Assembly (NCBI GenBank): GCA_025655555.1
Contig: JAHXIQ010000007.1
Coordinates: forward strand, 83,010-147,009
Direction of reading: 5' to 3'
DNA from: Candidatus Thiodiazotropha sp. (ex Myrtea sp. 'scaly one' KF741663)
GTDB lineage: Bacteria > Pseudomonadota > Gammaproteobacteria > Chromatiales > Chromatiaceae
DNA length: 64,000 nt
Shown here: in pieces, positions 46,673 through 64,000 of the stretch
How positions within the stretch are numbered: position 1 is the stretch's first letter
Layout of the letters: every line of letters begins with the position of its first letter
Program-made: the position numbers and the translations under genes
Notes under the pieces: model-generated
Seen by the model: the letters and a program-made list of their open reading frames with translations, nothing else
The model's database searches: none
Told to the model about the DNA's origin: nothing

Positions 46673-47656
46673 ATGGCCTTCAGAAATCGTCTTCACAGAA
46701 GCGAACTGGCCGTACCGGGCAGTAATCCGCGCATGCTTGAGAAGGCGCCCGAAGCGGGTGCTGACCTGGTCTTTCTCGATCTGGAGGACGCTGTGGCGGT
46801 GTCCGACAAGGAGGAAGCCAGAAAGAACATCATCCATGCGCTGAACCATTACGATTGGTCACACTGCTCGGTCTCTATTCGAATCAACGGGCTCGACACC
46901 CATTTCTGCTACCGCGATATCATCGAGGTGGTGGAAGCGGCTGGGGACAAGCTCGACACTATTCTGGTGCCCAAGGTTAATCAGCCATCCGATCTGCAGT
47001 TTGTGGCATTGCTGCTGGAGCAGATCGAGGCAGCCAAGGGTTTCAAGCAGATCAACCTGCACGCCCTCATCGAGACCGCCATGGGTATGGCCAATGTGGA
47101 GGCCATCGCCCAGACCTGTCCCGAGCGCTTGGAGGCCCTGGTTTTCGGTGTGGCCGACTATGCCGCCTCGACTCAGGCGCGAACCACCAGCATGGGCGGC
47201 ATCAACCCGGATTATCTGGTGCTTGATGATGCGGATGCCAAGGGACATCGGCAGACCTATTTGGGCAACCAGTGGCACTTCGCCATGTCGCGTATGATCG
47301 TGGCTTGCCGCGCCTATGGCCTACGGCCCATCGACGGACCCTATGGCGACTTTAGCGATCCGGATGGCTATCTGGCGGTGGCCCGTGCCTTCGCTGCCCT
47401 GGGTGGTGAGGGTAAGTGGGCGATCCACCCTTCACAGATTGAGCTGGCGAACCAGGTCTTTACTCCCGGAGAAGCAGAGTATGAGAGAGCCTGCCGCATT
47501 GTCTCTTCCATGGAGGAAGCGGCGGCAGAAGGGCGTGGGGCGGTCAGCCTCGACGGCCGCATGATCGATGCCGCCTCCATCCGCCAGGCTCAGGTGGTGA
47601 TTGAGAAGATGGCGCAGATTGAGCGCTTGTCCGGCAAGGAGGCCGTGGTGGCATGA
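46673..47656 (+). CDS. mcl: Malyl-CoA lyase-type HpcH/CitE-family lyase
   Basis: 327 aa with a GGAGG RBS. LDLEDAV, SIRINGLDT.F.YRD, DGPYGDFSD..G, GKWAIHPSQIELAN.VFTP and DAASIRQAQVV closely parallel remembered Rhodobacter Mcl1. Confidence 0.8.
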   Translation: MAFRNRLHRSELAVPGSNPRMLEKAPEAGADLVFLDLEDAVAVSDKEEARKNIIHALNHYDWSHCSVSIRINGLDTHFCYRDIIEVVEAAGDKLDTILVPKVNQPSDLQFVALLLEQIEAAKGFKQINLHALIETAMGMANVEAIAQTCPERLEALVFGVADYAASTQARTTSMGGINPDYLVLDDADAKGHRQTYLGNQWHFAMSRMIVACRAYGLRPIDGPYGDFSDPDGYLAVARAFAALGGEGKWAIHPSQIELANQVFTPGEAEYERACRIVSSMEEAAAEGRGAVSLDGRMIDAASIRQAQVVIEKMAQIERLSGKEAVVA

Positions 47657-48825
47657 ATATCCATGAGTATCAGACCAAGGAGCTGTTCCGCAGCTACGGT
47701 ATGCCGGTGCCTGAGGGGCGCATGGCCCATTCAGCCAATAAGGCGGTTTCCGTTGCCGAGCAGGTGGGTGGCGACGGCTGGGTGGTGAAGGCGCAGATCC
47801 ATGCCGGTGGCCGGGGTAAGGCCGGTGGTGTGCAACTGGCCAGGAGCCTGGATGAGGTGCAGCAGCATGCTGAGAAACTCATCGGTTCACGTCTGGTGAC
47901 CAAGCAGACCGGTGAAACGGGCCGCATGGTGAACCGGGTGCTGGTGGAGCAGATGCAACAGATCGATAAGGAGTACTATCTTGGCCTCGTCATCGATCGT
48001 GCCTCTCAACGCATCACGCTGATCGCTTCGGCTTCCGGCGGGATGGACATCGAAGAGGTCGCGGCGGCCACACCGGATCAAGTGATCAACGAGGTGGTCG
48101 ATCCGGCAGTGGGCTTGCAGGATTTTCAATGCCGTAAGGTGGCAGCCGCCATCGGTCTCAACGGCAAGCAGATCATCAAGGCGGGTCGCGTCATGAAGCA
48201 GCTCTATCGCTGTTTTCGTGACAAGGACGCTTTGATGGTGGAGATCAATCCCCTGGTAACCACTCAGGACGGTCAGTTTTTGGCCCTCGACGGAAAGATG
48301 TCTTTCGACGGCAATGCGCTTTTCCGTCAACCGGAGATTGCAGACTTGCGGGATTTTGATGAAGAGGATCCCAAGGAGGTTGAGGCTTCAGGCCACGACC
48401 TAAACTACATCGCCCTAGATGGCGGTGTCGGCTGCATCGTCAACGGTGCCGGTCTGGCGATGGCCACCATGGACGCCATCAGCCTCTACGGTGGGCGCCC
48501 GGCCAACTTCCTCGATGTGGGTGGTGGCGCCTCACCAGAGAAGATCGCCAATGCCTTTCGCATCGTGCTGGAAGATCCTAACGTAAAAGTTCTGCTGCTC
48601 AATATTTATGCAGGTATCAACCGCTGCGACTGGATCGCGGAAGGCATCGTCAAGGCGATGGCGGATCAGACCATCGAGGTGCCGATCGTGGTCAGACTGG
48701 CGGGTACCAACCTGGAGGCGGGCAGGAAGATCCTCAGTGAGTCCGGGCTCGACTATATCCATGCGGACCGGCTCAGCGATGCCGCCGAGAAAGCAGTGAG
48801 GGCAGTTAACGGGGAGGTCGTATGA
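47653..48825 (+). CDS. mtkA: ADP-forming acyl-CoA synthetase beta subunit (SucC-like; malate thiokinase MtkA by context)
   Basis: MNIHEYQTKELF, VVKAQIHAGGRGKAGGV, VNGAGLAMATMD and ANFLDVGGGA are present. ATGA overlap with mcl. Confidence 0.8.
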   Translation: MNIHEYQTKELFRSYGMPVPEGRMAHSANKAVSVAEQVGGDGWVVKAQIHAGGRGKAGGVQLARSLDEVQQHAEKLIGSRLVTKQTGETGRMVNRVLVEQMQQIDKEYYLGLVIDRASQRITLIASASGGMDIEEVAAATPDQVINEVVDPAVGLQDFQCRKVAAAIGLNGKQIIKAGRVMKQLYRCFRDKDALMVEINPLVTTQDGQFLALDGKMSFDGNALFRQPEIADLRDFDEEDPKEVEASGHDLNYIALDGGVGCIVNGAGLAMATMDAISLYGGRPANFLDVGGGASPEKIANAFRIVLEDPNVKVLLLNIYAGINRCDWIAEGIVKAMADQTIEVPIVVRLAGTNLEAGRKILSESGLDYIHADRLSDAAEKAVRAVNGEVV

Positions 48826-49745
48826 GTATTCTGGTCAATAAGGATTCACGGGTTATTTTTCAGGGCTTCACCGGCCAGCACGCCACATTCCATGCCCAGG
48901 AAGCGATCCGTATGGGTACCAATGTGGTGGGGGGCGTGACGCCGGGTAAAGGCGGGGAGACCCATATCGACCGGCCGGTCTTCGACACGGTGAAAGATGC
49001 TGTGGCTGAGACGGGCGCGGATGTCAGCGTGGTCTTTGTGCCACCACCTTTCAGTGCCGATGCCATCATGGAAGCCATCGAGGCCGGCATCGAGGTCATC
49101 GTGGTGATCACCGACGGGGTACCGGTACAGGACATGGTGCGGGTGAAACGCTATCTGATCGGCCATGACGCCATCATCATCGGCCCCAATACCGCCGGTG
49201 TCATTACCCCGGAGGAGTGCAAGGTCGGCATTATGCCGGCGCATATCTATCCCAAGGGACGTATCGGTCTGGTCTCTCGCTCCGGCACTCTCAACTATGA
49301 GGCGGTGGAGCAGATGAGTGAGCTGGGGCTGGGTATCTCCACCAGCATCAGCATTGGTGGTGATCCGGTCAACGGCTGTGATTTCCTCACCCTGATGAAG
49401 CAGTTTGCCGATGACCCCGAAACCGATGCTGTGCTGATGATAGGTGAGATTGGTGGGTCTCAGGAGGTGGATGCGGCGACCTGGGCCAAGGCGCATATGG
49501 ATAAGCCTTTGATTGGCTTTATCGCCGGTGCTACGGCGCCCCCCGGACGCACCATGGGACATGCAGGCGCGATCATCTCCGGTGAATCGGACACAGCCCA
49601 AGCGAAGATGCGGCGGCTTGATGAGTTGGGTGTCAGTGTCGTTCAGAATGCCGCTGAGATTGGTCAGACGGTGCTGCAAAGTGTCAACGGGCGTAGCAAT
49701 GAGAGAGATGAAGCGGCTAACCCCAGTTGCGTTTCATCTGTCTGA
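48822..49745 (+). CDS. mtkB: ADP-forming acyl-CoA synthetase alpha subunit (SucD-like; MtkB by context)
   Basis: MSILVNKDSRVIFQGFTG, GGVTPGKGG, SRSGTL.YE and MGHAGAII (phospho-His) are present. ATGA overlap with the beta subunit gene. Confidence 0.8.
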   Translation: MSILVNKDSRVIFQGFTGQHATFHAQEAIRMGTNVVGGVTPGKGGETHIDRPVFDTVKDAVAETGADVSVVFVPPPFSADAIMEAIEAGIEVIVVITDGVPVQDMVRVKRYLIGHDAIIIGPNTAGVITPEECKVGIMPAHIYPKGRIGLVSRSGTLNYEAVEQMSELGLGISTSISIGGDPVNGCDFLTLMKQFADDPETDAVLMIGEIGGSQEVDAATWAKAHMDKPLIGFIAGATAPPGRTMGHAGAIISGESDTAQAKMRRLDELGVSVVQNAAEIGQTVLQSVNGRSNERDEAANPSCVSSV

Positions 49746-53599: not shown

Positions 53600-56500
53600 G
53601 TGTTTTCTCTAAATACTAATAATATATGCTTCATAGTATTGCTGGCTGTCTCGTCGATGTTGTGCGCTTCACAGGCTGTTGCGTCAGGCTCGTTGAAGAT
53701 TTTAATCGTACACGCCTACAGCCAGGAGTATCCCTGGACCAAGGGGCAACATCAGGGCTTTGTCGACAAACTTAACCAGGAGGCAGCATTACAAATCACC
53801 ATAAAAACTGAGTATCTGGATACTAAACGCATACAGTATGAGCAGAATTATGCAGATCGTTTTGCCGCCTACCTGAATCAAAAATATCATCAGTTCGAGC
53901 CAGATGCCATATATGTCACCGATGACAACGGCTTAAGTTTTGGCCTCGATAAACTCTCCAGACTATTTCCTAACGCGCCATTACTTTTCTCCGGAGTTAA
54001 CGACTACTCTATCCAGTCGAGATTGGATAAGAACAGCGTGACAGGTGTTTTCGAAAAAAAGGAAATTGGGCCCAACCTGGATTTACTACAACAAATGTTT
54101 GGCGATGTGCAGCATATTGTTGTGATTGGTGATGATTCCAATACTTATCATGCCATCGAGCGAGAAATTAGAGAGGAGATGGCGACACGGGAACAAATGA
54201 GGATTACCTATCTGTCTGATAGTCGACTGGATGTCCTTTTGGGTCGTCTAAATCATTTCGATAATCCTATTGTTCTACTAACTACTTTGGGTGCAGTAAA
54301 GGATAGTAAAGGCGAGATACTCAATCTTGATCAGACGATCGGTCAGATAGTTTCAGCCGGTGTTAAAGTCGCAATTAGTATGGAAGACGCTTATCTGTTT
54401 GATGGTGTATTGGGCGGCTATGTCACAAGCGGATCTGCTCAGGGGTATAGTGCGGCATCACTGTTGCTTTCTTATATAAACGGTCAATCCATCAACTCGA
54501 TTGCTCCTGTTGTCGATAGTCCTAACGAATATATTATTGATAACAGAGTGGTGCAATCCCTTAAGTTGGATATACCCGCGGATATCCGAAATATTGCGAA
54601 GATCCTTCATCCTGGCGTAAGCTTTTACCAGGGTAACCGAAACGCAATACTGTCAATTCTTTTTTTTCTTTCTCTCGCCTTGGTTGCAACGCTGATTTTG
54701 TACAGCCTGGTTACTTCACGCAAGAATCGAGAACTGAGACTACAATCGACCCGACTGCAGCGTCAGGGACTAATGCTTCAAGAAAGCGAAGAGAAATATC
54801 GTTTGTTATTTGAGCTTTCTGACGATCCAATGCTTGTTATCCAGGGTGACAGTTTTGCCCTCGCAAATGAAGCTGCAGTAAGAATCCTGGGATATGACAA
54901 GGCAGATGACCTGCAGAAATTGCATCCGTCGAGGTTGTCGCCAGAGAGGCAGCCTGATGGTGAGCTGTCAAAAAATAAAGCTGATGTAATGATGGCTCAG
55001 GCCCACACAGATGGGTACCATCGATTCGAATGGCAACACATCAAAAAAGACGGTATGCCGCTTCTTATAGAGGTATCGCTAACACGGATACCTTATGAAG
55101 GTGGAAATGCACTTTTTTGCGTATGGCATGATATAACTGAATGGCGCCATGCCGAGTGGGGATTGCGTGAAAAAACAGCCTATCTTAATAGCGTTCTCAG
55201 CGCATCGGTCAAAATCGGTTACATAGCTACTGATAATGACCTTAACATTACTTACTATAATCAAACTGCTGTACAGATATTTGGTATGAAACCAGATGAG
55301 CTGCAAGGGAAAGATATTCATTTCTTTCATGGAGGGAATAGAAGTGTGGCTGATGATCGTATGGTCAAGGCATTAGAGTTGGCCGAGAAGGAGGGAGAGT
55401 TTCGTTTTTCTATAAAGCGAGATGTGGATAGTAATACTCAATATATTGACGCAAGAATTTCGCCTATCTTAGATGAATCTCGTGTATTAAACGGTTTCAT
55501 GCTGATGGTTGAAGATGTAACTAAACAGCATGCTGATGAAGAGCTAATAAAATTCCAGGCGACTAACGACATCCTGACTAGTTTGCCAAATCGTCGAACC
55601 CTGGTGGATCGCTTATCCCGGACTATTTCGCGCTGCTTGCGTCATAAACAGTTAGGGACTGTAATCTTCATTGATTTGGATCACTTTAAATATACTAATG
55701 ATACATTGGGCCACACTATCGGTGACAACTTGCTACAGCAGGTGGCCACTCGTATGCAGGAATCGGTGCGTAGTGAAGATACCGTGGCACGCCTTGGTGG
55801 AGATGAGTTTGTCATTCTGCTATCGGATATCACTGGCAATCTAGAGTCAGCAATTAACGATGCAAGATTGATTGCTGACAATTTACTACAAGCCATTGCA
55901 GTACCTTACAGTATTGAAAAGCATGAAATACGAATTAGTGCCAGCATAGGTATTACTATTTTTCCGTCCAATAATGAATCCGCTGATGATGTTTTGCGTA
56001 AAGCAGATACCGCGATGTACCAAGCAAAAGATGCTGGCCGCAATACAATCAAATTTTTCTCGCAAAAAATGCAGCAGAAAGTGGAAGCGCGGTTGCGGTT
56101 GTTAGATCAGTTACATCAGGCAGTCGAAAATAGAGAATTTATGGTCTATTTTCAACCGCAAATTAATAGTCGAAATCAGTTGGTTGGTGCAGAATCTTTG
56201 GTGCGCTGGCACAAGCAGGACAATACTGTAGTGTTACCAGACAGATTTATCACGCTGGCTGAAGAGAGTGGTCTGATAGACCCAATCAGCGAGTTTGTAC
56301 TGCGTGAGTCGTTACGTGCTCAGGTAAAATGGGCAGAAGAACAGACTTGGGATCACACGCCGCGTGTATCCATAAACGTCAGTGCTATACAATTCCGCCA
56401 AAAAGACTTTGTTGATACGATCAAGCGAGCTGTAAAAGAAATTGGTAGTGCCCCAGAAAAATTGACGCTGGAAGTCACAGAGAGCATGCTCATCGGTAAT

Positions 56501-56857
56501 GTCACCGAAACAGTAGAGAAGATGCAGCAGCTCAAAGAGTTGGGGGTTAGATTCTCTATTGACGATTTTGGTACTGGCTATTCATCATTGGCCTATCTCA
56601 AACAATTGCCCATCAGTGAGATTAAGATTGATCGCTCTTTTGTCCAGGATATACTTACTGATCCGAATGATGCAGCATTAGTAAATACTATTCTTAATCT
56701 TGCCAAACAGTTGCATCTTGAAGTTGTTGCAGAAGGTGTGGAGTCACAAGAAATTCGTAATACGCTTTTAGCGTATGGGTGTACCGTTTTTCAGGGTTAT
56801 TATTTCAGTAAGCCGGTACCATTGACGCAATTCGAACGAGAGTATCTTACTGGTTAA
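53600..56857 (+). CDS. Membrane sensor: periplasmic ABC-substrate-binding-like domain, TM, two PAS, GGDEF and EAL domains
   Basis: 1085 aa with a GTG start. A signal/TM segment precedes LKILIVHAYSQEYPWTKGQHQGF (ABC_sub_bind-type). A second TM segment is ILSILFFLSLALVATLILYSLV. The PAS texts are followed by an intact GGDEF (ARLGGDEFVILL). The EAL domain has ESLVRW, EVTES, DDFGTGYSSL, KIDRSF, AEGVE and QGYYF. Confidence 0.9.
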   Translation: MFSLNTNNICFIVLLAVSSMLCASQAVASGSLKILIVHAYSQEYPWTKGQHQGFVDKLNQEAALQITIKTEYLDTKRIQYEQNYADRFAAYLNQKYHQFEPDAIYVTDDNGLSFGLDKLSRLFPNAPLLFSGVNDYSIQSRLDKNSVTGVFEKKEIGPNLDLLQQMFGDVQHIVVIGDDSNTYHAIEREIREEMATREQMRITYLSDSRLDVLLGRLNHFDNPIVLLTTLGAVKDSKGEILNLDQTIGQIVSAGVKVAISMEDAYLFDGVLGGYVTSGSAQGYSAASLLLSYINGQSINSIAPVVDSPNEYIIDNRVVQSLKLDIPADIRNIAKILHPGVSFYQGNRNAILSILFFLSLALVATLILYSLVTSRKNRELRLQSTRLQRQGLMLQESEEKYRLLFELSDDPMLVIQGDSFALANEAAVRILGYDKADDLQKLHPSRLSPERQPDGELSKNKADVMMAQAHTDGYHRFEWQHIKKDGMPLLIEVSLTRIPYEGGNALFCVWHDITEWRHAEWGLREKTAYLNSVLSASVKIGYIATDNDLNITYYNQTAVQIFGMKPDELQGKDIHFFHGGNRSVADDRMVKALELAEKEGEFRFSIKRDVDSNTQYIDARISPILDESRVLNGFMLMVEDVTKQHADEELIKFQATNDILTSLPNRRTLVDRLSRTISRCLRHKQLGTVIFIDLDHFKYTNDTLGHTIGDNLLQQVATRMQESVRSEDTVARLGGDEFVILLSDITGNLESAINDARLIADNLLQAIAVPYSIEKHEIRISASIGITIFPSNNESADDVLRKADTAMYQAKDAGRNTIKFFSQKMQQKVEARLRLLDQLHQAVENREFMVYFQPQINSRNQLVGAESLVRWHKQDNTVVLPDRFITLAEESGLIDPISEFVLRESLRAQVKWAEEQTWDHTPRVSINVSAIQFRQKDFVDTIKRAVKEIGSAPEKLTLEVTESMLIGNVTETVEKMQQLKELGVRFSIDDFGTGYSSLAYLKQLPISEIKIDRSFVQDILTDPNDAALVNTILNLAKQLHLEVVAEGVESQEIRNTLLAYGCTVFQGYYFSKPVPLTQFEREYLTG

Positions 56858-58311: not shown

Positions 58312-58446
58312 TCAGGCTTGGGCTCTCTTTTGGAAGAAAGCTCGTGCTTGACCTATGGCCACTCCGAGGACGGTGGCGACACTTAAAGCAGCGACAGCAA
58401 AAATGAATACTGCTGATGCCATGATCAAGATGGGTGCTACATTCAT
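58312..58446 (-). CDS. Possible 44-aa hydrophobic peptide
   Basis: ATG 58446 follows GGAGAT. The peptide is MNVAPILIMASAVFIFAVAALSVATVLGVAIGQARAFFQKRAQA, with one or two TM spans and a basic tail. I recognised no family. Confidence 0.3.
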   Translation of the reverse strand: MNVAPILIMASAVFIFAVAALSVATVLGVAIGQARAFFQKRAQA

Positions 58447-58613
58447 GATGATCTCCAACAGGCAATCTGAAATTGAAAACGTCTGCAATCTCGAGGCGAA
58501 TGTTAGCATATCATGAAATAATTGAAAGCCAGGTCAGGCATTAAGTTTATTTTGTGTGAAACAGGAATTATATTTTTATTGATCAGGATCAGTATTCACC
58601 TGCCTTACTCCCC

Positions 58614-58627: not shown

Positions 58628-58793
58628 TGTCATGGAAGCGATGTTGACCAGAATAAACCCTGGAGGAGATACTCCGAACCGCAATGGAAAGTCGGTCCGT
58701 TTGGCACTGTTGTACCGTTTTGGCTCCGTTTGATGTATTTAACGTATAAGCCTCTTCGTAGCGTTTGTGCACTTAGTCCGCGAGGAAATAATA

Positions 58794-60776
58794 ATGAAAT
58801 ACATCGCATCCAGATCGTCGGTCTGGTTTTTCTTTTTTCTTTTCACTCTCTGCTTCTTCACTCCCGTTCAGAGTGCCGAGAGTGAGTTAACCATTCTGGG
58901 GGAAACGCCACCCCCGGGTTTCGACCCCGTTACGGGGGAACGCATCATCCCCAACGAACGTTGCTTGACGTGCCATGGCGATGCGCACGAGAAAACCGAT
59001 ACGCGGGATGACGGCACCATCGTCGATATCTACGCGGATCCGGAGAAGATGGAGGATAGTGTGCATGGCGAGCAGGCCTGCACCAACTGTCACGCCACCA
59101 TCGACCGCGTACCGCACCGCGAGGCCCCGGATGTTGTCGTTGGCTGCGTGGAGTGTCACCGGGAGACTTGGGACAAGCACAGGAACGATCCGGAAGGTAA
59201 ATACGAACGCCTCGGCGTGGTGATGGAGACAATCGACTCCTACTACGATTCCATACACGCCCGCCCCAACAGGCACGACCAATCTGAGACCAATGCCACC
59301 TGTTACGACTGCCATGAAGCCCACGACATCGGCACCCTTGGCAGTCATCAACGGGCCGAACATCGCCTGAAGAATCCCGAGATGTGCGGCGAGTGCCACC
59401 GGAAAGAGCTCAACGAGTACAAGGAATCCGTCCACGGCAAGGCGGTGCTGGAGGAGAATGACAGCGAATCGGCCGTCTGCTCCGATTGCCACACGACCCA
59501 CACCATCGACGATCCCGACAGCGACAAGGCCAAGCTATCGATCACCAAAAATTGCGGTGACTGCCACAAAGAGGCCCAGCGCACCTATTTCGACTCCTAT
59601 CACGGCCAGGTGCATCGCCTTGGTTATACCAACACTGCAAAGTGCCACGACTGCCACAGTGGTCACTCGGTCAAGGGCGAGGATGATCCGACATCGGAGA
59701 TTCATGCCAACAATCGTCTGGAAAACTGCAGAGTCTGCCACGAAGATGCCAATGAAAACTTCCTGACCTTCTGGCCCCACGGTGATGCGGACGACAGGGA
59801 AAATTACCCCGGCCTTTGGTTCTTCAAGATCTTCATGCAGATGCTGATCTTCTCGGTCATGGCCTTCTTCTGGGTCCATGTGTTTATGTGGCTCTATCGC
59901 GAGGTGATGGACCGTATTCAGGGCAAGGGTTTTATCGAGGATCTGAATAAACCCGATGTGGTCTATTTCCGCCGTTTCCCGTCAGTTTGGCGCTGGATCC
60001 ACGGCCTGTTCGCCATCTCCACCATGACCCTGATCCTAACCGGCACCACCCTGTTGTTTGCACATACCGGTTGGGCCAAGGCCGTGGTGGTGTTACTCGG
60101 CGGACCGGAGATGGAGGGCATTATCCATCGTACCGCAGCCGTCATCTGGCTGGGTATATTCCTCGCCCACCTGACCATAGCTATCAGCAATATCTGGAGC
60201 AAGCGCGATAGCTTCAAGTGGTTCGGTAGCACTTCTATGCTGCCCAACTGGAAGGATTGGGATGATCTGAAAGGCATGTTCAAGTGGTTCCTCGGCCGAG
60301 GCCCGCGTCCCGAGTTCACTCACTGGACCTATTGGCAGAAGTTTGACTACTGGGCACCCTTCTGGGGTGCGGCGATAATCGGTTCATCCGGTATCATGCT
60401 GTTCGCACCGGAGGCGACCGCCATCATCCTGCCGGGCTGGATGTTCAATATCGCCACCCTGGTGCATGCCGAAGAGGCGCTGCTGGCGGCCATCTTCCTC
60501 AACTCTGTGCACTTCTTTAACGTGCATTTCCGGCCCGAGCGCTTCCCGATGAGTACGACTATCTTCACCGGTGCGATCCCCATCGAGGAGTTCAAGCATG
60601 ACCACCGTCTCGAATACGAGCGGCTGGTTGAGAGCGGTGAACTTGACAGTCATCTGGTCAGTCGTCCCTCGCGTCGTGCAGACCTGGCGGCCTCCTTCAT
60701 CACTACCGTGCTGATCATGGCCGGTCTGGCCTTGCTGACGCTGGTGCTGATCGGTCTGATGACCTCGCCGGCTTGA
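58794..60776 (+). CDS. Nine-haem c-type cytochrome fused to a polytopic b-type-cytochrome-like membrane domain
   Basis: ATG 58794 follows GAGGAA. A signal peptide ends VQSAES. There are nine CxxCH motifs: CLTCH, CTNCH, CVECH, CYDCH, CGECH, CSDCH, CGDCH, CHDCH and CRVCH. The C-terminal about 330 aa has about six hydrophobic helices carrying conserved-looking His (WIHGLF, IHRTAAVIWLGIFLAHL, LVHAEE, SVHFFNVHF). Confidence 0.88.
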   Translation: MKYIASRSSVWFFFFLFTLCFFTPVQSAESELTILGETPPPGFDPVTGERIIPNERCLTCHGDAHEKTDTRDDGTIVDIYADPEKMEDSVHGEQACTNCHATIDRVPHREAPDVVVGCVECHRETWDKHRNDPEGKYERLGVVMETIDSYYDSIHARPNRHDQSETNATCYDCHEAHDIGTLGSHQRAEHRLKNPEMCGECHRKELNEYKESVHGKAVLEENDSESAVCSDCHTTHTIDDPDSDKAKLSITKNCGDCHKEAQRTYFDSYHGQVHRLGYTNTAKCHDCHSGHSVKGEDDPTSEIHANNRLENCRVCHEDANENFLTFWPHGDADDRENYPGLWFFKIFMQMLIFSVMAFFWVHVFMWLYREVMDRIQGKGFIEDLNKPDVVYFRRFPSVWRWIHGLFAISTMTLILTGTTLLFAHTGWAKAVVVLLGGPEMEGIIHRTAAVIWLGIFLAHLTIAISNIWSKRDSFKWFGSTSMLPNWKDWDDLKGMFKWFLGRGPRPEFTHWTYWQKFDYWAPFWGAAIIGSSGIMLFAPEATAIILPGWMFNIATLVHAEEALLAAIFLNSVHFFNVHFRPERFPMSTTIFTGAIPIEEFKHDHRLEYERLVESGELDSHLVSRPSRRADLAASFITTVLIMAGLALLTLVLIGLMTSPA

Positions 60777-60792
60777 ACGGAGATATAAGTCA

Positions 60793-61374
60793 ATGAGATA
60801 CAACAACAACATTGCAATCCTGGCGCTGCTGATGATCCTGCCCGCTTTTTCACAAGCGGAGAGTCCATCCGGCCAGGCGCTCGCCTTCACCTGCGCGGGT
60901 TGCCACGGTACCGACGGTTCCAGTGTCGGTCCCTCCAGTCCGTCAATCGCCGGGATGGATCCCGATGTCTTCGTCGACGTTATGAAGGGCTATCGTGAGG
61001 ACAGGCGCAATTCGACCATCATGAATCGCATCGCCAAGGCCTATACCGATGAACAGCTCAGGGGCATGGCCTGGTTCTTTGCCAAGCAGAAGCTGCAGGT
61101 ATCGTCCCAAAAATACGATCCGCAACTGGCTGTGGTCGGCGAAAAGCTGCACAACAAGTATTGCAATAAGTGTCACGAGAAAGGCGGCGCAGCAGGGGAT
61201 TCCGGTACTCTTGCCGGTCAGTGGATGCCTTACCTCAGGTACAGCATGGCTGATTATATCGACGGTCGACGTCCCTATCCGCGCAAGATGAAACGTAAGG
61301 TCGATGCCGTAATCGAGGCTGAAGGCACCGATGCAGTACCGGCGTTGATCCACTACTACGGCAGCCAGCAATAA
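60793..61374 (+). CDS. fccA: Flavocytochrome c sulfide dehydrogenase, dihaem cytochrome c subunit
   Basis: A signal peptide is present. The two haem sites are CAGCHG and CNKCHE. SVGPSSPSIAGMDP.VFV.VM, TIMNRIAKAYT, LAGQW.PYL.Y.M.D and YYGSQQ closely parallel remembered A. vinosum FccA. Confidence 0.92.
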   Translation: MRYNNNIAILALLMILPAFSQAESPSGQALAFTCAGCHGTDGSSVGPSSPSIAGMDPDVFVDVMKGYREDRRNSTIMNRIAKAYTDEQLRGMAWFFAKQKLQVSSQKYDPQLAVVGEKLHNKYCNKCHEKGGAAGDSGTLAGQWMPYLRYSMADYIDGRRPYPRKMKRKVDAVIEAEGTDAVPALIHYYGSQQ

Positions 61375-61393
61375 GCGCAGAAGGATAAGAACA

Positions 61394-62689
61394 ATGAGTA
61401 AATTCAACCGCAGAGACTTTATCCGTTGGTCTGCCGGAATAACCCTGGCCAGTGGTTCGTTGGGATTTCCTGGATTGCTGCTGGCAGCAACCCGCAAGGT
61501 AGTGATAGTGGGTGGTGGTGTCGGCGGCTGCACCGCCGCCAAGTACCTCCGCAAGCTCGATCCCAATGTCGAGGTCACGCTGATCGAGACCAAAAAGGCC
61601 TATACCTCCTGCTTCATGAGTAACGAGGTATTGAGCGGCGATCGGACACTGGAATCCCTCACCTTCGACTATGAAGGGCTGAAACGACACGGGGTCAATA
61701 TAGTGATCGACCGGGTGACGGCCATCGATCCGGCCAAGAAATCGGTGGCGACCGAAAGTGGAGAGACGTTTGCCTACGACGCCTGTGTGGTGTCCCCCGG
61801 GGTCGATTTTAAATGGGATGCAATCGAGGGTTACAACGCAGAGGTTTCCGAAACCATACCCCACGCCTGGTTCGCCGGTCCACAGACCCAGACCCTGCGG
61901 AATCAGATTGAATCCATGCCCGAAGGGGGCAAGGTGATTATCGTGGCACCGCCGAATCCCTACAAGTGCCCGCCAGGACCCTACGAACGGGCTGCTCAGA
62001 TCGCCATGTATTGTAAGCACCACAAGCCCAAGGCCAAGATCCTGATCCTAGACCCCAAGGACCGTTTCTCCAAGCAGGGGTTGTTCCGGCAGGGTTGGAG
62101 CAAGCTCTACGGTTTCGGTACTGAGAACAGCATGATCGAGTGGGTGGGTGCCGCCGGTGGGGGTACCGTCGAGGCCATTGATCCTTCCACCCGTACTCTG
62201 CAGGCGGAGATCGAAGAGTTTCAGGCCGATGTAATCAACATCATCCCGCCACAAAAGGCCGGCAAGGTCGCCTTTGCCTCCGATCTGGTGGAAGGGGATT
62301 GGTGCCCCGTGGATAAGCTCACCTTCGAATCCACCCGTCATCCCGATGTCTATGTCCTGGGTGACGCCTCCAGCGCCGCCAAGATGCCGAAGTCGGCCTA
62401 TGCCGCCAACTCCCAGGCCAAGGTGGCGGCGGCTGCCATCGTGGCTCGGTTCAACGGCCAGTCACCTGGTGAGCCTACCTTCGTCAATACCTGCTACAGC
62501 ATACTGGGTGAAGAGCATGGCATCTCTGTGGCAGCGGTCTATACCCTGAACCGTGAGAGCAATACCATCCTGCCGATCAAAGGGGCAGGGGGGCTCTCGC
62601 CCATGGATGCATCGGAGGCACAACGCAAACGTGAAGTGAGTTACGCCCACAGCTGGTTTAAAAATGTCATCGACGACATGATGGGTTGA
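61394..62689 (+). CDS. fccB: Flavocytochrome c sulfide dehydrogenase, flavoprotein subunit
   Basis: The Tat-type signal is NRRDFIRW. The FAD fold is KVVIVGGGVGGCTAAKYL. YKCPPGPYERA, GFGTENSMIEW, DVINIIPPQKAG, GDWCPVD, MPKSAYAANSQAKVAAAA and TCYS are as in FccB. Confidence 0.95.
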   Translation: MSKFNRRDFIRWSAGITLASGSLGFPGLLLAATRKVVIVGGGVGGCTAAKYLRKLDPNVEVTLIETKKAYTSCFMSNEVLSGDRTLESLTFDYEGLKRHGVNIVIDRVTAIDPAKKSVATESGETFAYDACVVSPGVDFKWDAIEGYNAEVSETIPHAWFAGPQTQTLRNQIESMPEGGKVIIVAPPNPYKCPPGPYERAAQIAMYCKHHKPKAKILILDPKDRFSKQGLFRQGWSKLYGFGTENSMIEWVGAAGGGTVEAIDPSTRTLQAEIEEFQADVINIIPPQKAGKVAFASDLVEGDWCPVDKLTFESTRHPDVYVLGDASSAAKMPKSAYAANSQAKVAAAAIVARFNGQSPGEPTFVNTCYSILGEEHGISVAAVYTLNRESNTILPIKGAGGLSPMDASEAQRKREVSYAHSWFKNVIDDMMG

Positions 62690-62694
62690 GGCTG

Positions 62695-62716
62695 TCAGGA
62701 GAGACGCTCCTCTCCT
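62695..62716 (+). terminator. Hairpin just after the fccB stop (no U-tract)
   Basis: CAGGAGAG-acgctc-CTCTCCTG is a perfect 8-bp stem 6 nt after the TGA. The lack of a following T-run makes its terminator function uncertain. Confidence 0.35.
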
Positions 62717-63643
62717 GTCGCCGAATACCCAGACCCGGTTAACTTAATCGCTATCCGGAAAATCCGCCATTCGAATTCCGTTCTAATGGGAATGCCATTT
62801 TGTCGGCTTTAAAAAGGTGGATGAGTCACGCCGAATAATATGAGTATCCCAGTCTATGCCAACAGCGCGACAAAACGGTTGCTCGCTGCCGCCTATGCCG
62901 GCGTCCGTTTCGCCACGTGAGTGGTGATACATCGTTTTAATCCCATTTTTCCTTGGGATGTGTCATGCCACTTACTGCAGGTGTTTACTCACTCTCCAGG
63001 ATCATTTGGTTGGCAAAGTGTTGTGCAATGCAGAAGTTATGATGATTGTGTCGAAAGGTCACTCTCAGATTCTGTTTGGACGGTGTCTGCGGCAACTGTC
63101 TGCGAATATGGTGTCGTACTTATCATCCAACCATCTATTTCTCCGAGAAGCACGGAAAATCACAGTAGGGGAGCAGTCCTGGCCGAACCTTTTCCTGGGA
63201 CGGTGGCTCAAGGGGCTAGCCAGGTATTTGCGGGAGAATTCAGACAATGATGAAGTGGCGGGATGGGAATGGCCTCGGGAGGCGGGGCGATAGGTGTTTA
63301 CGGAGAGAGATATAGGATTGCTTCGCTTTTCGCGGCGGTCAACAGCGTTCAGACGCGACGGAGTGTATGCTCATTGTTTGGCGGATAGCGAACGTCTTGA
63401 TCCGGTCAACAGGGTGAGCTGATTCCAAGAGGAACTAGAGCAAACGATCGCTTGAGTATTCAGTCCATTTTTATTTTCTGGAGGAAGTAGTACGATTGGT
63501 ATCAGTGAGGTTACATCTGTTCGCCTGCCATTCGACGAACTTTCCTTCACAATGTAATTCACCACAGTGTGCTGTGGTGCAAGAGATACGTGGTTACAAA
63601 AGCGAGCTGGGGCGGTTTCGATGGCTATGAGCCGGAATGGAAT

Positions 63644-64000
63644 ATGCTGATGGATACGACCAGAATCGGAAGGCACCCGCTGACGATACTAACAAGTAGT
63701 ATCACATGTCTTGCAGTGTTTCTTAGCTTGTCGATAATCGCAGGTTGCTCGTCTGAAGACCAGGTAAAACCTCTTAAGCCGCTGCGAGTTGCGACCGGAA
63801 ACTGGCAACCTTTCGTCGGCGAAGAGCTCCCGCATGGCGGTCCACTGGCGACGATGATCTCGACGATTTTCGTTGACTTGGGTTATGTCCCTGAATTCCA
63901 GTTTTATGACTGGCCCATGGTAGAGATACATCTTGAAACTGGCTATCCGAGTCTAGCTTTTCCGTTTATCAAGAGTGACGAAAGAGTGGCTAAGGGTTTC
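63644..64000 (+). CDS. Lipoprotein of the family-3 solute-binding-protein type, N-terminal part (3' end lies outside the window)
   Basis: This ORF is not in the supplied track because it runs off the window end. My own translation gives MLMDTTRIGRHPLTILTSSITCLAVFLSLSIIAGCSSEDQVKPLKPLRVATGNWQPFVGEELPHGGPLATMISTIFVDLGYVPEFQFYDWPMVE.... It has the lipobox IAGC and SBP_bac_3-like text (LRVAT..W.PF). Confidence 0.6.
   Translation, partial: MLMDTTRIGRHPLTILTSSITCLAVFLSLSIIAGCSSEDQVKPLKPLRVATGNWQPFVGEELPHGGPLATMISTIFVDLGYVPEFQFYDWPMVEIHLETGYPSLAFPFIKSDERVAKGF

What the first reader, a model, noticed from the sequence alone, without database searches (positions are those of the whole stretch)
58794..62689. 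Nine-haem cytochrome c / b-type cytochrome fusion apparently co-operonic with fccAB: candidate membrane electron outlet for flavocytochrome c sulfide dehydrogenase
- **What the sequence shows.**
  - One ORF encodes a signal peptide, a periplasmic domain of about 300 aa with nine CxxCH sites, and a C-terminal membrane domain of about 330 aa.
  - The membrane domain has about six helices with His residues placed as in FdnI/HydC-type dihaem cytochromes b (WIHGLF; IHRTAAVIWLGIFLAHL; LVHAEE; SVHFFNVHF).
  - Its stop is 16 nt from fccA, and fccA is 19 nt from fccB.
  - The whole unit is bounded upstream by a 1.2-kb gene-poor region and downstream by a hairpin.
- **Established knowledge.**
  - FccAB is a soluble periplasmic sulfide:cytochrome c oxidoreductase whose physiological electron route is still debated.
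  - A similar nine-haem plus HydC/FdnI-type b-cytochrome architecture was reported, as I recall, for Geobacter CbcL. There it exchanges electrons between the quinone pool and periplasmic carriers.
- **Inference.** This protein may dock FccAB to the membrane and pass sulfide-derived electrons to the quinone pool, or in the opposite direction. That would make a three-gene sulfide:quinone wire distinct from SQR. I do not know of a described fccAB-linked module of this kind.
Basis: partly seen in the sequence, partly recalled or inferred. Interest (0 to 1): 0.78.

Follow-up and report, generated by a model that had tools for sequence, protein, structure and literature searches.

The report
Membrane cytochrome wired to sulfide dehydrogenase
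A membrane protein predicted to carry eleven haems shares an apparent operon with the soluble sulfide-oxidising enzyme FccAB here and in dozens of related sulfur bacteria, suggesting an undescribed route from sulfide into the membrane quinone pool.

Summary
**Observation.** It is confirmed. ORF 58794-60776 encodes a signal peptide, nine CxxCH haem sites with nine further invariant His, and six membrane helices. The central four helices match FdnI by fold and by profile, and all four axial His align.

**Neighbours.** fccA and fccB follow after 16 and 19 nt. Both are canonical.

**Family.** The protein belongs to the already described CbcL/MtoC/MtrH family of quinone-linked inner-membrane cytochromes. 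The architecture is therefore not new.

**What appears new.**
- Among relatives at least 74% identical, 17 of 17 dereplicated lineages carry fccAB directly downstream.
- At 61-74% identity, 8 carry it downstream, 2 carry it divergently upstream and 2 lack it.
- Below 55% identity, 1 of 58 informative lineages carries it. Those relatives sit instead next to mtoA/mtrB-type genes or c4-type cytochromes.
- Linkage spans Gamma- and Betaproteobacteria with unrelated flanks.
- I found no paper describing it.

**Best reading (confidence about 0.5).** FccAB passes sulfide electrons through the nine-haem wire and two b haems to quinone, as in formate dehydrogenase-N.

**Limits.** Direction of flow and physical docking are untested.

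The parts
58644..58673 (+). Weak sigma-70-like promoter candidate (TTGACC-18-GATACT), about 120 nt upstream of the start codon
   Evidence: It matches 9 of 12 positions, and the region yields no more such sites than shuffled sequence, so this is only a candidate. No sigma-54 box was found in the window.
58794..58874 (+). Sec-type signal peptide (aa 1-27, cleavage likely after VQS)
   Evidence: Hydrophobic N-terminal segment. The N-terminus aligns with close homologues.
58875..59798 (+). Periplasmic nine-haem c-type cytochrome domain (aa 28-335)
   Evidence: Nine CxxCH motifs. These motifs and nine further His are invariant. Pfam hits to Cytochrome_C7, Cytochrom_c3_2 and MtrC/MtrF II-IV. AlphaFold model of this domain has pLDDT 89. 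Fold matches are weak and only to the haem cores of HAO-type enzymes.
59799..60776 (+). Six-helix membrane domain containing an FdnI/HydC-type dihaem cytochrome b (aa 336-660, plus the stop codon)
   Evidence: Helices from the model. Foldseek top hit is 1kqf_C FdnI, probability 1.0 and TM-score 0.75. The profile against PDB hits FdnI at E 2.4e-5 with all four axial His aligned. Pfam PF01292 E 6e-6, below the cut-off.
60793..61374 (+). fccA, dihaem cytochrome c subunit of flavocytochrome c sulfide dehydrogenase
   Evidence: Matches 1fcd_C at E 6e-50 over the full length. Two cytochrome c domains. The gene starts 16 nt after the upstream stop and has a GGAG ribosome-binding site.
61394..62689 (+). 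fccB, flavoprotein subunit with a TAT signal
   Evidence: FCSD_central and FCSD-flav_bind domains. Matches 3vrd_B and 1fcd_A at E 1e-145 and 1e-142. The FAD-binding Cys (C73) and both active-site Cys are conserved in the alignment.
62690..62722 (+). GC-rich hairpin immediately after the fccB stop. It may end or stabilise the transcript. It has no U-tract.
   Evidence: dG -33.7 kcal/mol, z -3.46, and 0 of 200 shuffles fold as well.

Best explanation
**Proposed module.** The three genes encode one membrane-attached sulfide dehydrogenase, built like formate dehydrogenase-N or hydrogenase-1. That design has a periplasmic catalytic dimer, an electron wire and a dihaem cytochrome b anchor.

**Proposed path of electrons**
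1. FccB oxidises sulfide at its FAD and disulfide centre.
2. FccA's two haems take the electrons.
3. The nine bis-His c haems of the membrane protein carry them to the outer b haem (ligands H445 and H558).
4. They cross the membrane to the inner b haem (ligands H403 and H573).
5. They reduce quinone in a pocket formed by the very conserved cytoplasmic loop, aa 471-522.

**Consequence.** Sulfide electrons would enter the quinone pool instead of the soluble cytochrome c pool. They could then pass through the bc1 complex or drive reverse electron flow for CO2 fixation. If the quinone site faces the cytoplasm as in FdnI, the step would also build membrane potential.

**What is shown and what is inferred**
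- Shown: the architecture, family membership, conserved His ligands, canonical FccAB, operon-like spacing and clade-wide conserved linkage.
- Inferred: physical docking, direction of flow, position of the quinone site and electrogenicity.
For: **Architecture and cofactors**
- establish the domains, the haem sites and the aligned axial His.

**Canonical FccAB**
-.

**Tight spacing**
- The window has 16-nt and 19-nt spacers with ribosome-binding sites.
- The terminator-like sites found in the region (6, all weak) are no more than the shuffles give (mean 5.1).
- In 22 related loci the median gaps are about 0 and 11 nt.

**Conserved linkage** (dereplicated at 95% identity)
- At least 74% identity: 17 of 17 lineages have fccAB directly downstream.
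- 61-74% identity: 8 downstream, 2 divergent upstream, 2 absent.
- 55-61% identity: 7 divergent upstream, 14 absent.
- Below 55% identity: 1 of 58.

**Signs that the unit is inherited and selected as a unit**
- Flanking genes differ completely between loci.
- Linkage survives rearrangement to a divergent orientation and spans two proteobacterial classes.
- FccB identity tracks the membrane protein's identity, r = 0.87 over 44 loci.
- L045 shows an apparently independent association inside the MtoC-like clade.

**Link to sulfide metabolism**
- In the betaproteobacterial group a sigma-54 activator and -24/-12 boxes precede the membrane-protein gene.
- In L003 a type I SQR lies on the other side of that regulator.

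**Quinone site**
- FdnI's quinone-site segment (YNAGQK) aligns with the invariant TYWxKF motif.

**Thermodynamics (established values, from memory)**
- S0/HS- is about -270 mV and ubiquinone about +100 mV, so flow from sulfide to quinone is downhill.
Against: - Sister relatives at 55-62% identity often lack fccB. They carry instead a c4-type dihaem cytochrome and an ankyrin-repeat protein. The membrane protein therefore does not require FccB.
- More distant family members sit next to mtoA/mtrB-type outer-membrane conduit genes.
- The only studied member, CbcL, oxidises menaquinol and reduces the periplasmic cytochrome PpcA. Its haem domain has a midpoint of -194 mV (PMC9129911). A potential that low here would make transfer from FccA uphill.
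- SQR coexists in one locus, so the need for a second route to quinone is unclear.
- FccA haem potentials near 0 to +50 mV (from memory) leave little driving force for an electrogenic step.
- No docking model, transcript data or biochemistry is available.
Confidence: 0.5

Rival explanations
1. The protein works in the opposite direction, as a quinol oxidase like CbcL. Electrons would leave the quinone pool through the b haems and the nine-haem wire to FccA, acting as a c4-type shuttle. FccA would pass them to terminal oxidases or denitrification enzymes. Alternatively FccB would run in reverse as a sulfur or polysulfide reductase during anoxia.
For: - CbcL, the only characterised member, is a quinol oxidase that reduces a periplasmic cytochrome.
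- Many family members pair with c4-type dihaem cytochromes and no FccB. From memory, c4 cytochromes donate electrons to cbb3 oxidases.
Against: - Ubiquinol to S0/HS- is uphill by more than 350 mV (from memory).
- With a cytoplasmic-side quinone site, quinol oxidation would consume membrane potential.
- This reading does not explain why fccB, and not only fccA, is retained in every lineage at 74% identity or above.
- In the beta group the unit lies beside a divergent sigma-54 activator, and in one locus (L003) a type I SQR lies on that regulator's other side. This fits sulfide oxidation better.
Confidence: 0.2
2. The protein is a general gateway between periplasmic cytochromes c and the quinone pool, with no specific complex with FccAB. 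Adjacency would reflect co-regulation within a sulfide or redox regulon. FccA would be one of several interchangeable partners.
For: - The family is found with many different periplasmic modules: mtoA/mtrB, c4-type cytochromes, a NapC/NirT-type cytochrome and Tll0287-like proteins.
- fccB is lost in some sister lineages.
- A divergent arrangement is tolerated.
Against: - Stop-start gaps of -1 to about 20 nt are conserved across lineages, and the partners are inherited together.
- An apparently independent second association exists in L045.
Confidence: 0.2
3. The protein serves extracellular electron transfer (iron, manganese or electrodes), as proposed for MtoC and MtrH. Its position next to fccAB would have no functional meaning.
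For: Homologues at 40-47% identity lie next to DmsE-family decahaem and MtrB/PioB genes. The family is published in that context.
Against: - No mtoA/mtrB-like genes occur within 5-10 kb in any fccAB-linked locus.
- Linkage to fccAB is conserved in 27 dereplicated lineages at 61% identity or above, counting both arrangements (17 + 8 + 2).
Confidence: 0.05

Closest known systems
CbcL of Geobacter sulfurreducens (GSU0274; PMC9129911, PMC6295460)
   Same: - Nine c-type haems, all bis-His, in an N-terminal periplasmic domain.
- Six membrane helices with a dihaem b-type HydC/FdnI-like core.
- The same signature cytoplasmic loop: 28 of 51 residues are identical to OCR fragments of CbcL.
   Different: - CbcL is a menaquinol oxidase feeding PpcA for metal and electrode reduction, and it is not next to fccAB.
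- The published identity between CbcL and MtoC-type proteins is only about 35%.
- I could not align the full CbcL sequence here.
MtoC / MtrH of iron-oxidising and iron-reducing Betaproteobacteria (PMC6295460)
   Same: Same family and architecture. Homologues at 40-47% identity lie next to DmsE-family decahaem and MtrB/PioB genes. These proteins are proposed to be quinone reductases receiving periplasmic electrons, which is the direction proposed here.
   Different: The partner is an outer-membrane conduit for iron, not a sulfide dehydrogenase. The window protein's clade (at least about 60% identity) has no such genes nearby.
Formate dehydrogenase-N (FdnGHI) and hydrogenase-1 (HyaABC) of E. coli
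   Same: The membrane anchor has the same fold and the same four axial His. The overall logic also matches: a periplasmic dehydrogenase, an electron wire, and a dihaem b that reduces quinone at the cytoplasmic face.
   Different: The wire here is nine c haems fused to the anchor, not an iron-sulfur subunit. The anchor has two extra helices and three extra conserved His. The catalytic partner is a flavocytochrome.
Flavocytochrome c sulfide dehydrogenase FccAB of Allochromatium vinosum and Thermochromatium tepidum (1FCD, 3VRD)
   Same: FccA and FccB here are full-length orthologues with the catalytic Cys conserved.
   Different: The classical enzyme is described as soluble and as donating to soluble cytochromes. 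A published comparison of fccAB contexts in A. vinosum, Chlorobium, Paracoccus and Thiobacillus found no conserved neighbours (PMC6382920).
Sulfide:quinone oxidoreductase (SQR)
   Same: The proposed net reaction is the same: sulfide to quinone.
   Different: SQR is a single monotopic flavoprotein with no haems. FccB is only distantly related to it (E about 1e-12). SQR coexists with the module in L003.

Membership tests
CbcL/MtoC/MtrH inner-membrane cytochromes | N-terminal periplasmic multihaem c domain (nine CxxCH in CbcL) | tested here: met
   Nine CxxCH motifs, all invariant in 14 and in 43 homologues.
CbcL/MtoC/MtrH inner-membrane cytochromes | All c haems bis-His ligated (conserved extra His, no conserved Met) | tested here: met
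   Nine further invariant periplasmic His and no invariant Met in that domain. This is conservation only, not spectroscopy.
CbcL/MtoC/MtrH inner-membrane cytochromes | Six C-terminal membrane helices | tested here: met
   Hydropathy and AlphaFold helices. The distribution of positive charges fits a periplasmic N-terminal domain (counted from the sequence).
CbcL/MtoC/MtrH inner-membrane cytochromes | Sequence homology to named members | tested here: met
   45% identity to a Sulfuritalea homologue encoded beside DmsE-family decahaem and MtrB/PioB genes. 28 of 51 residues identical to OCR fragments of G. sulfurreducens CbcL. Full-length CbcL was not available for alignment.
CbcL/MtoC/MtrH inner-membrane cytochromes | Exchanges electrons with the quinone pool | not testable with these tools
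   This needs membrane biochemistry.
FdnI/HydC-type dihaem cytochrome b (Pfam PF01292) | Passes the curated Pfam score | tested here: not met
   26.5 bits against a cut-off of 30.1, E 6.4e-6. Several homologues do carry a precomputed PF01292 hit.
FdnI/HydC-type dihaem cytochrome b (Pfam PF01292) | Four-helix fold and four axial His (one on helix 1, one on helix 2, two on helix 4) | tested here: met
   Foldseek top hit is 1kqf_C, probability 1.0 and TM-score 0.75, followed by HyaC. In the profile alignment H403, H445, H558 and H573 correspond to FdnI His18, 57, 155 and 169.
FdnI/HydC-type dihaem cytochrome b (Pfam PF01292) | Quinone site at the cytoplasmic face | tested here: inconclusive
   FdnI's YNAGQK segment aligns with the invariant TYWxKF motif in the conserved cytoplasmic loop. 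No coordinates or ligand could be examined.
Flavocytochrome c sulfide dehydrogenase (FccAB) | FccB has FCSD central and flavin-binding domains, a TAT signal, the FAD-linking Cys and the active-site Cys pair | tested here: met
Flavocytochrome c sulfide dehydrogenase (FccAB) | FccA is a dihaem c4-like subunit encoded directly upstream of fccB | tested here: met
   The spacer is 19 nt.
Three-gene operon (membrane cytochrome, fccA, fccB) | Co-transcription | not testable with these tools
   Only indirect support: short spacers, no convincing internal terminator, and conserved order.
Sulfide:quinone oxidoreductase (SQR) | A single flavoprotein of the SQR family | tested here: not met
   FccB matches SQR structures only at E 1e-11 to 1e-12, against 1e-145 for FCSD.

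The most novel reading that the evidence does not exclude
The module is an energy-conserving sulfide:quinone oxidoreductase. Sulfide would be oxidised in the periplasm, and its electrons carried across the membrane through two b haems to a cytoplasmic-side quinone site. This would build membrane potential as formate dehydrogenase-N does. It would yield more energy per sulfide than SQR or soluble FccAB, and it would define the long-debated physiological electron acceptor of FccAB in these bacteria.
Probability: 0.25. Interest if true: 0.85.

Novelty: new variant of a known kind. Interest (0 to 1): 0.64.

Why it matters
- **An open question becomes testable.** FccAB has been studied for decades, yet its role in vivo is unresolved. 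Mutants of A. vinosum still oxidise sulfide (PMC11267869), and published comparisons found no conserved gene neighbours (PMC6382920).
- **A candidate partner.** A conserved membrane partner from a quinone-linked cytochrome family suggests a concrete electron route.
- **Ecological reach.** The carriers include chemosynthetic symbionts (Candidatus Thiodiazotropha) and denitrifying sulfur oxidisers.
- **A wider family role.** The CbcL/MtoC/MtrH family has been viewed as a device for extracellular electron transfer. This linkage would extend it to soluble-substrate lithotrophy.
- If the step builds membrane potential, energy budgets for sulfide oxidation would need revision.

Tried and rejected
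- **Horizontal-transfer island.** The first profile suggested a GC jump. The window as a whole is 52% GC, and the low-GC outlier is the neighbouring GGDEF-EAL gene, not the fcc unit. The fcc genes only have somewhat high GC3.
- **Sigma-54 promoter in the window.** None was found, although relatives in the beta group have one.
- **Structured RNA in the flanks.** Rfam found nothing.
- **Solved structure of a family member.** A sequence search of the PDB with the full protein gave only marginal multihaem hits. No CbcL-type structure appears to have been deposited.
- **Fold of the nine-haem domain.** Only weak matches to the haem cores of HAO-type enzymes, TM-score about 0.38. This was not informative.
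- **Full-length Geobacter CbcL sequence.** Cluster look-ups gave no useful names. Only OCR fragments from a supplement could be used.
- **Literature on the linkage.** Eight of the ten literature searches looked for a description of the linkage and found none. The search for 'fccC' returned only unrelated acronyms.
- **Model geometry and docking.** A complex with FccA could not be predicted with the tools allowed.

Full report
**What is in the sequence**

The ORF at 58794-60776 on the plus strand encodes 660 aa. An upstream GTG at 58767 is possible. ATG 58794 is supported because close homologues align from residue 1.

The protein begins with a hydrophobic signal peptide. It carries nine CxxCH motifs between aa 57 and 316. 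All nine motifs are invariant in alignments of 14 and 43 homologues reaching down to about 30% identity. Nine additional periplasmic His are also invariant. This is the pattern expected for nine bis-His electron-transfer haems.

The C-terminal half forms six membrane helices in the AlphaFold model, with pLDDT of 80-90 in that region. The count of positive charges in the loops fits a topology in which the haem domain is periplasmic.

**The membrane domain is an FdnI-type cytochrome b**

- Pfam's Ni_hydr_CYTB model hits at E 6e-6 but falls below its curated score, so I tested the assignment further.
- The best structural match of the model in the PDB is the gamma subunit of E. coli formate dehydrogenase-N (1kqf_C, probability 1.0, TM-score 0.75). 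The cytochrome b of hydrogenase-1 follows.
- A profile of the membrane domain finds FdnI at E 2.4e-5.
- In that alignment H403, H445, H558 and H573 fall on FdnI His18, His57, His155 and His169, the ligands of its two haems.
- FdnI's quinone-site segment aligns with an invariant TYWxKF motif in the long cytoplasmic loop, which is the most conserved part of the domain.
- Three further conserved His (H459, H578 and near-invariant H362) remain unexplained.

**The neighbours are canonical fccAB**

- fccA starts 16 nt after the stop, and fccB starts 19 nt after fccA. Both have ribosome-binding sites.
- FccA matches the cytochrome subunit of the Allochromatium enzyme at E 6e-50.
- FccB matches the solved flavoprotein subunits at E about 1e-145. 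It has a TAT signal, the FAD-linking Cys and the active-site Cys pair.
- The terminator-like sites within the unit are weak and no more numerous than in shuffled sequence.
- A strong hairpin without a U-tract follows fccB.

**The family is already known**

The protein belongs to the CbcL/MtoC/MtrH family (PMC6295460). That family is described as having:
- a variable number of c haems, nine in CbcL;
- six membrane helices;
- a HydC/FdnI-like b domain;
- proposed roles as quinol oxidase or quinone reductase in extracellular electron transfer.

The periplasmic domain of Geobacter CbcL has nine low-spin bis-His haems, a midpoint of -194 mV, and reduces PpcA (PMC9129911).

The family is large. There are 681 representatives at 50% clustering with E below 1e-30. 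A homologue 45% identical to the window protein lies beside a DmsE-family decahaem cytochrome and an MtrB/PioB porin. OCR fragments of CbcL share 28 of 51 residues with the signature loop.

**The linkage to fccAB is conserved and clade-specific**

I collected 163 loci from genomes and metagenomes and located fccA and fccB in them. The counts below are after dereplication at 95% identity.

| Identity to the window protein | fccAB downstream, same strand | fccAB upstream, divergent | fccAB absent |
|---|---|---|---|
| 74% or more | 17 | 0 | 0 |
| 61-74% | 8 | 2 | 2 |
| 55-61% | 0 | 7 | 14 |
| Below 55% | 1 | 0 | 57 |

Further points:
- Contigs too short to be informative are left out of the table.
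- Gaps between the three genes are typically -1 to 22 nt.
- Flanking genes are unrelated between loci.
- Carriers include Candidatus Thiodiazotropha (closest, 86%), Thiohalomonas denitrificans, Candidatus Nitricoxidivorans, Tepidiphilus and Rhodocyclaceae.
- On a neighbour-joining tree the linked loci occupy a contiguous region. The gamma group has an FccB 68-87% identical to the window's, and the beta group has one about 48% identical.
- FccB identity tracks the membrane protein's identity, r = 0.87.
- One MtoC-clade protein (L045) has fccAB downstream. This looks like a separate recruitment.
- The metagenome contigs are not fully independent samples, and the tree is a simple distance tree.

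**Other contexts in the family**

- Sister relatives without fccB carry a c4-type dihaem cytochrome and a periplasmic ankyrin-repeat protein. Some have a Tll0287-like gene upstream, and some also carry a NapC/NirT-type cytochrome.
- Many relatives at 40-50% identity have a cytochrome with FccA-like dihaem domains downstream but no FccB.
- The recurrent partner across the family is thus a small periplasmic cytochrome. In the window's clade that partner is FccA, together with its flavoprotein.
- In the beta group a sigma-54 activator lies divergently upstream, and -24/-12 boxes precede the membrane-protein gene.
- In Candidatus Nitricoxidivorans a type I SQR lies on the other side of that regulator.
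- This places the unit in a sulfide-oxidation locus. It also shows that the unit coexists with SQR.

**How it most likely works**

The simplest reading is a membrane-attached sulfide dehydrogenase. The path would run from FccB through FccA, the nine-haem wire, the outer b haem and the inner b haem, to quinone. The design mirrors formate dehydrogenase-N, with a haem wire in place of the iron-sulfur subunit.

From standard potentials (from memory), sulfide to ubiquinone is downhill by about 370 mV. The reverse reaction at FccB would be strongly uphill.

I put the components of this reading as follows:
- functional coupling of the three proteins: about 0.7;
- the sulfide-to-quinone direction: about 0.5;
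- an electrogenic, energy-conserving version: about 0.25.

The main counter-arguments are these:
- CbcL runs from quinol outward.
- The membrane protein occurs without FccB in sister lineages.
- SQR coexists with the module.
- Nothing here shows docking.

**Novelty**

Both components are known kinds. The conserved module appears undescribed. None of eight literature searches found a paper linking the two. A published comparison states that fccAB has no conserved neighbours in the model organisms examined. A recent study of Candidatus Thiodiazotropha expression still describes FccAB as donating to soluble cytochrome c. The library searched covers open-access papers and preprints only.

**Verdict**

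- This is a new variant of a known kind.
- It gives a clear experimental path to the long-standing question of what FccAB does in vivo.

Noticed in passing
window 53600-56857 (+): A 1085-aa PAS-GGDEF-EAL signalling protein is the compositional outlier of the region. Its GC is 0.43 and its GC3 is 0.41, against 0.52 for the window. This may mark a recent acquisition.
   Followed up: partly
window 58312-58509 (-): A 65-aa ORF with a membrane-like stretch lies inside the supposed gene-poor 1.2 kb. It is 68-72% identical at the same position in the two closest relatives (L004, L001). About 490 nt of upstream DNA is conserved at 70-72%.
   Followed up: partly
L007, L009, L010, L142, L146, L150, L160, L162: Relatives at 55-62% identity that lack fccAB carry the membrane cytochrome, a c4-type dihaem cytochrome c and a periplasmic ankyrin-repeat protein as a recurrent trio.
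   Followed up: partly
L130-L135, L138, L140, L143, L161; also L002 6477-7262: A Tll0287-like (PF11845) gene lies directly upstream of, or close to, the membrane cytochrome gene in several lineages. From memory, Tll0287 itself is a haem c protein with a PAS-like fold.
   Followed up: partly
L003 4864-11906; also L104, L105, L106, L108, L113: In Candidatus Nitricoxidivorans the order is type I SQR, a 68-aa gene and a sigma-54 activator on one strand, then the membrane cytochrome, fccA and fccB on the other. Sigma-54 -24/-12 boxes precede the membrane cytochrome gene in six loci of the beta group.
   Followed up: partly
L016 2839-9140; L028: Some family members at about 45% identity lie next to a multihaem cytochrome, a TAT-exported 4Fe-4S protein and an NrfD-like membrane protein. 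This looks like a second quinone-interacting complex in the same cluster.
   Followed up: no
L045 1636-5649: A Rhodocyclaceae protein from the MtoC-like clade (44% identity) has fccA and fccB downstream. This appears to be an independent association of the two modules.
   Followed up: partly
window aa H362, H459, H578 of the ORF 58794-60776: Three conserved His beyond the four needed for two b haems should all lie near the cytoplasmic face. They could bind a third haem or form the quinone or proton site.
   Followed up: no
window 46673-49745 (+): Three genes encode an HpcH/HpaI-type lyase and two subunits resembling succinyl-CoA synthetase, possibly malyl-CoA lyase with malate thiokinase or a citryl-CoA system. 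Their GC3 is about 0.7, like the fcc genes.
   Followed up: no
window 62723-64000: The 1.3 kb downstream of the hairpin holds only short ORFs with no Pfam match and no similarity to the related loci.
   Followed up: partly
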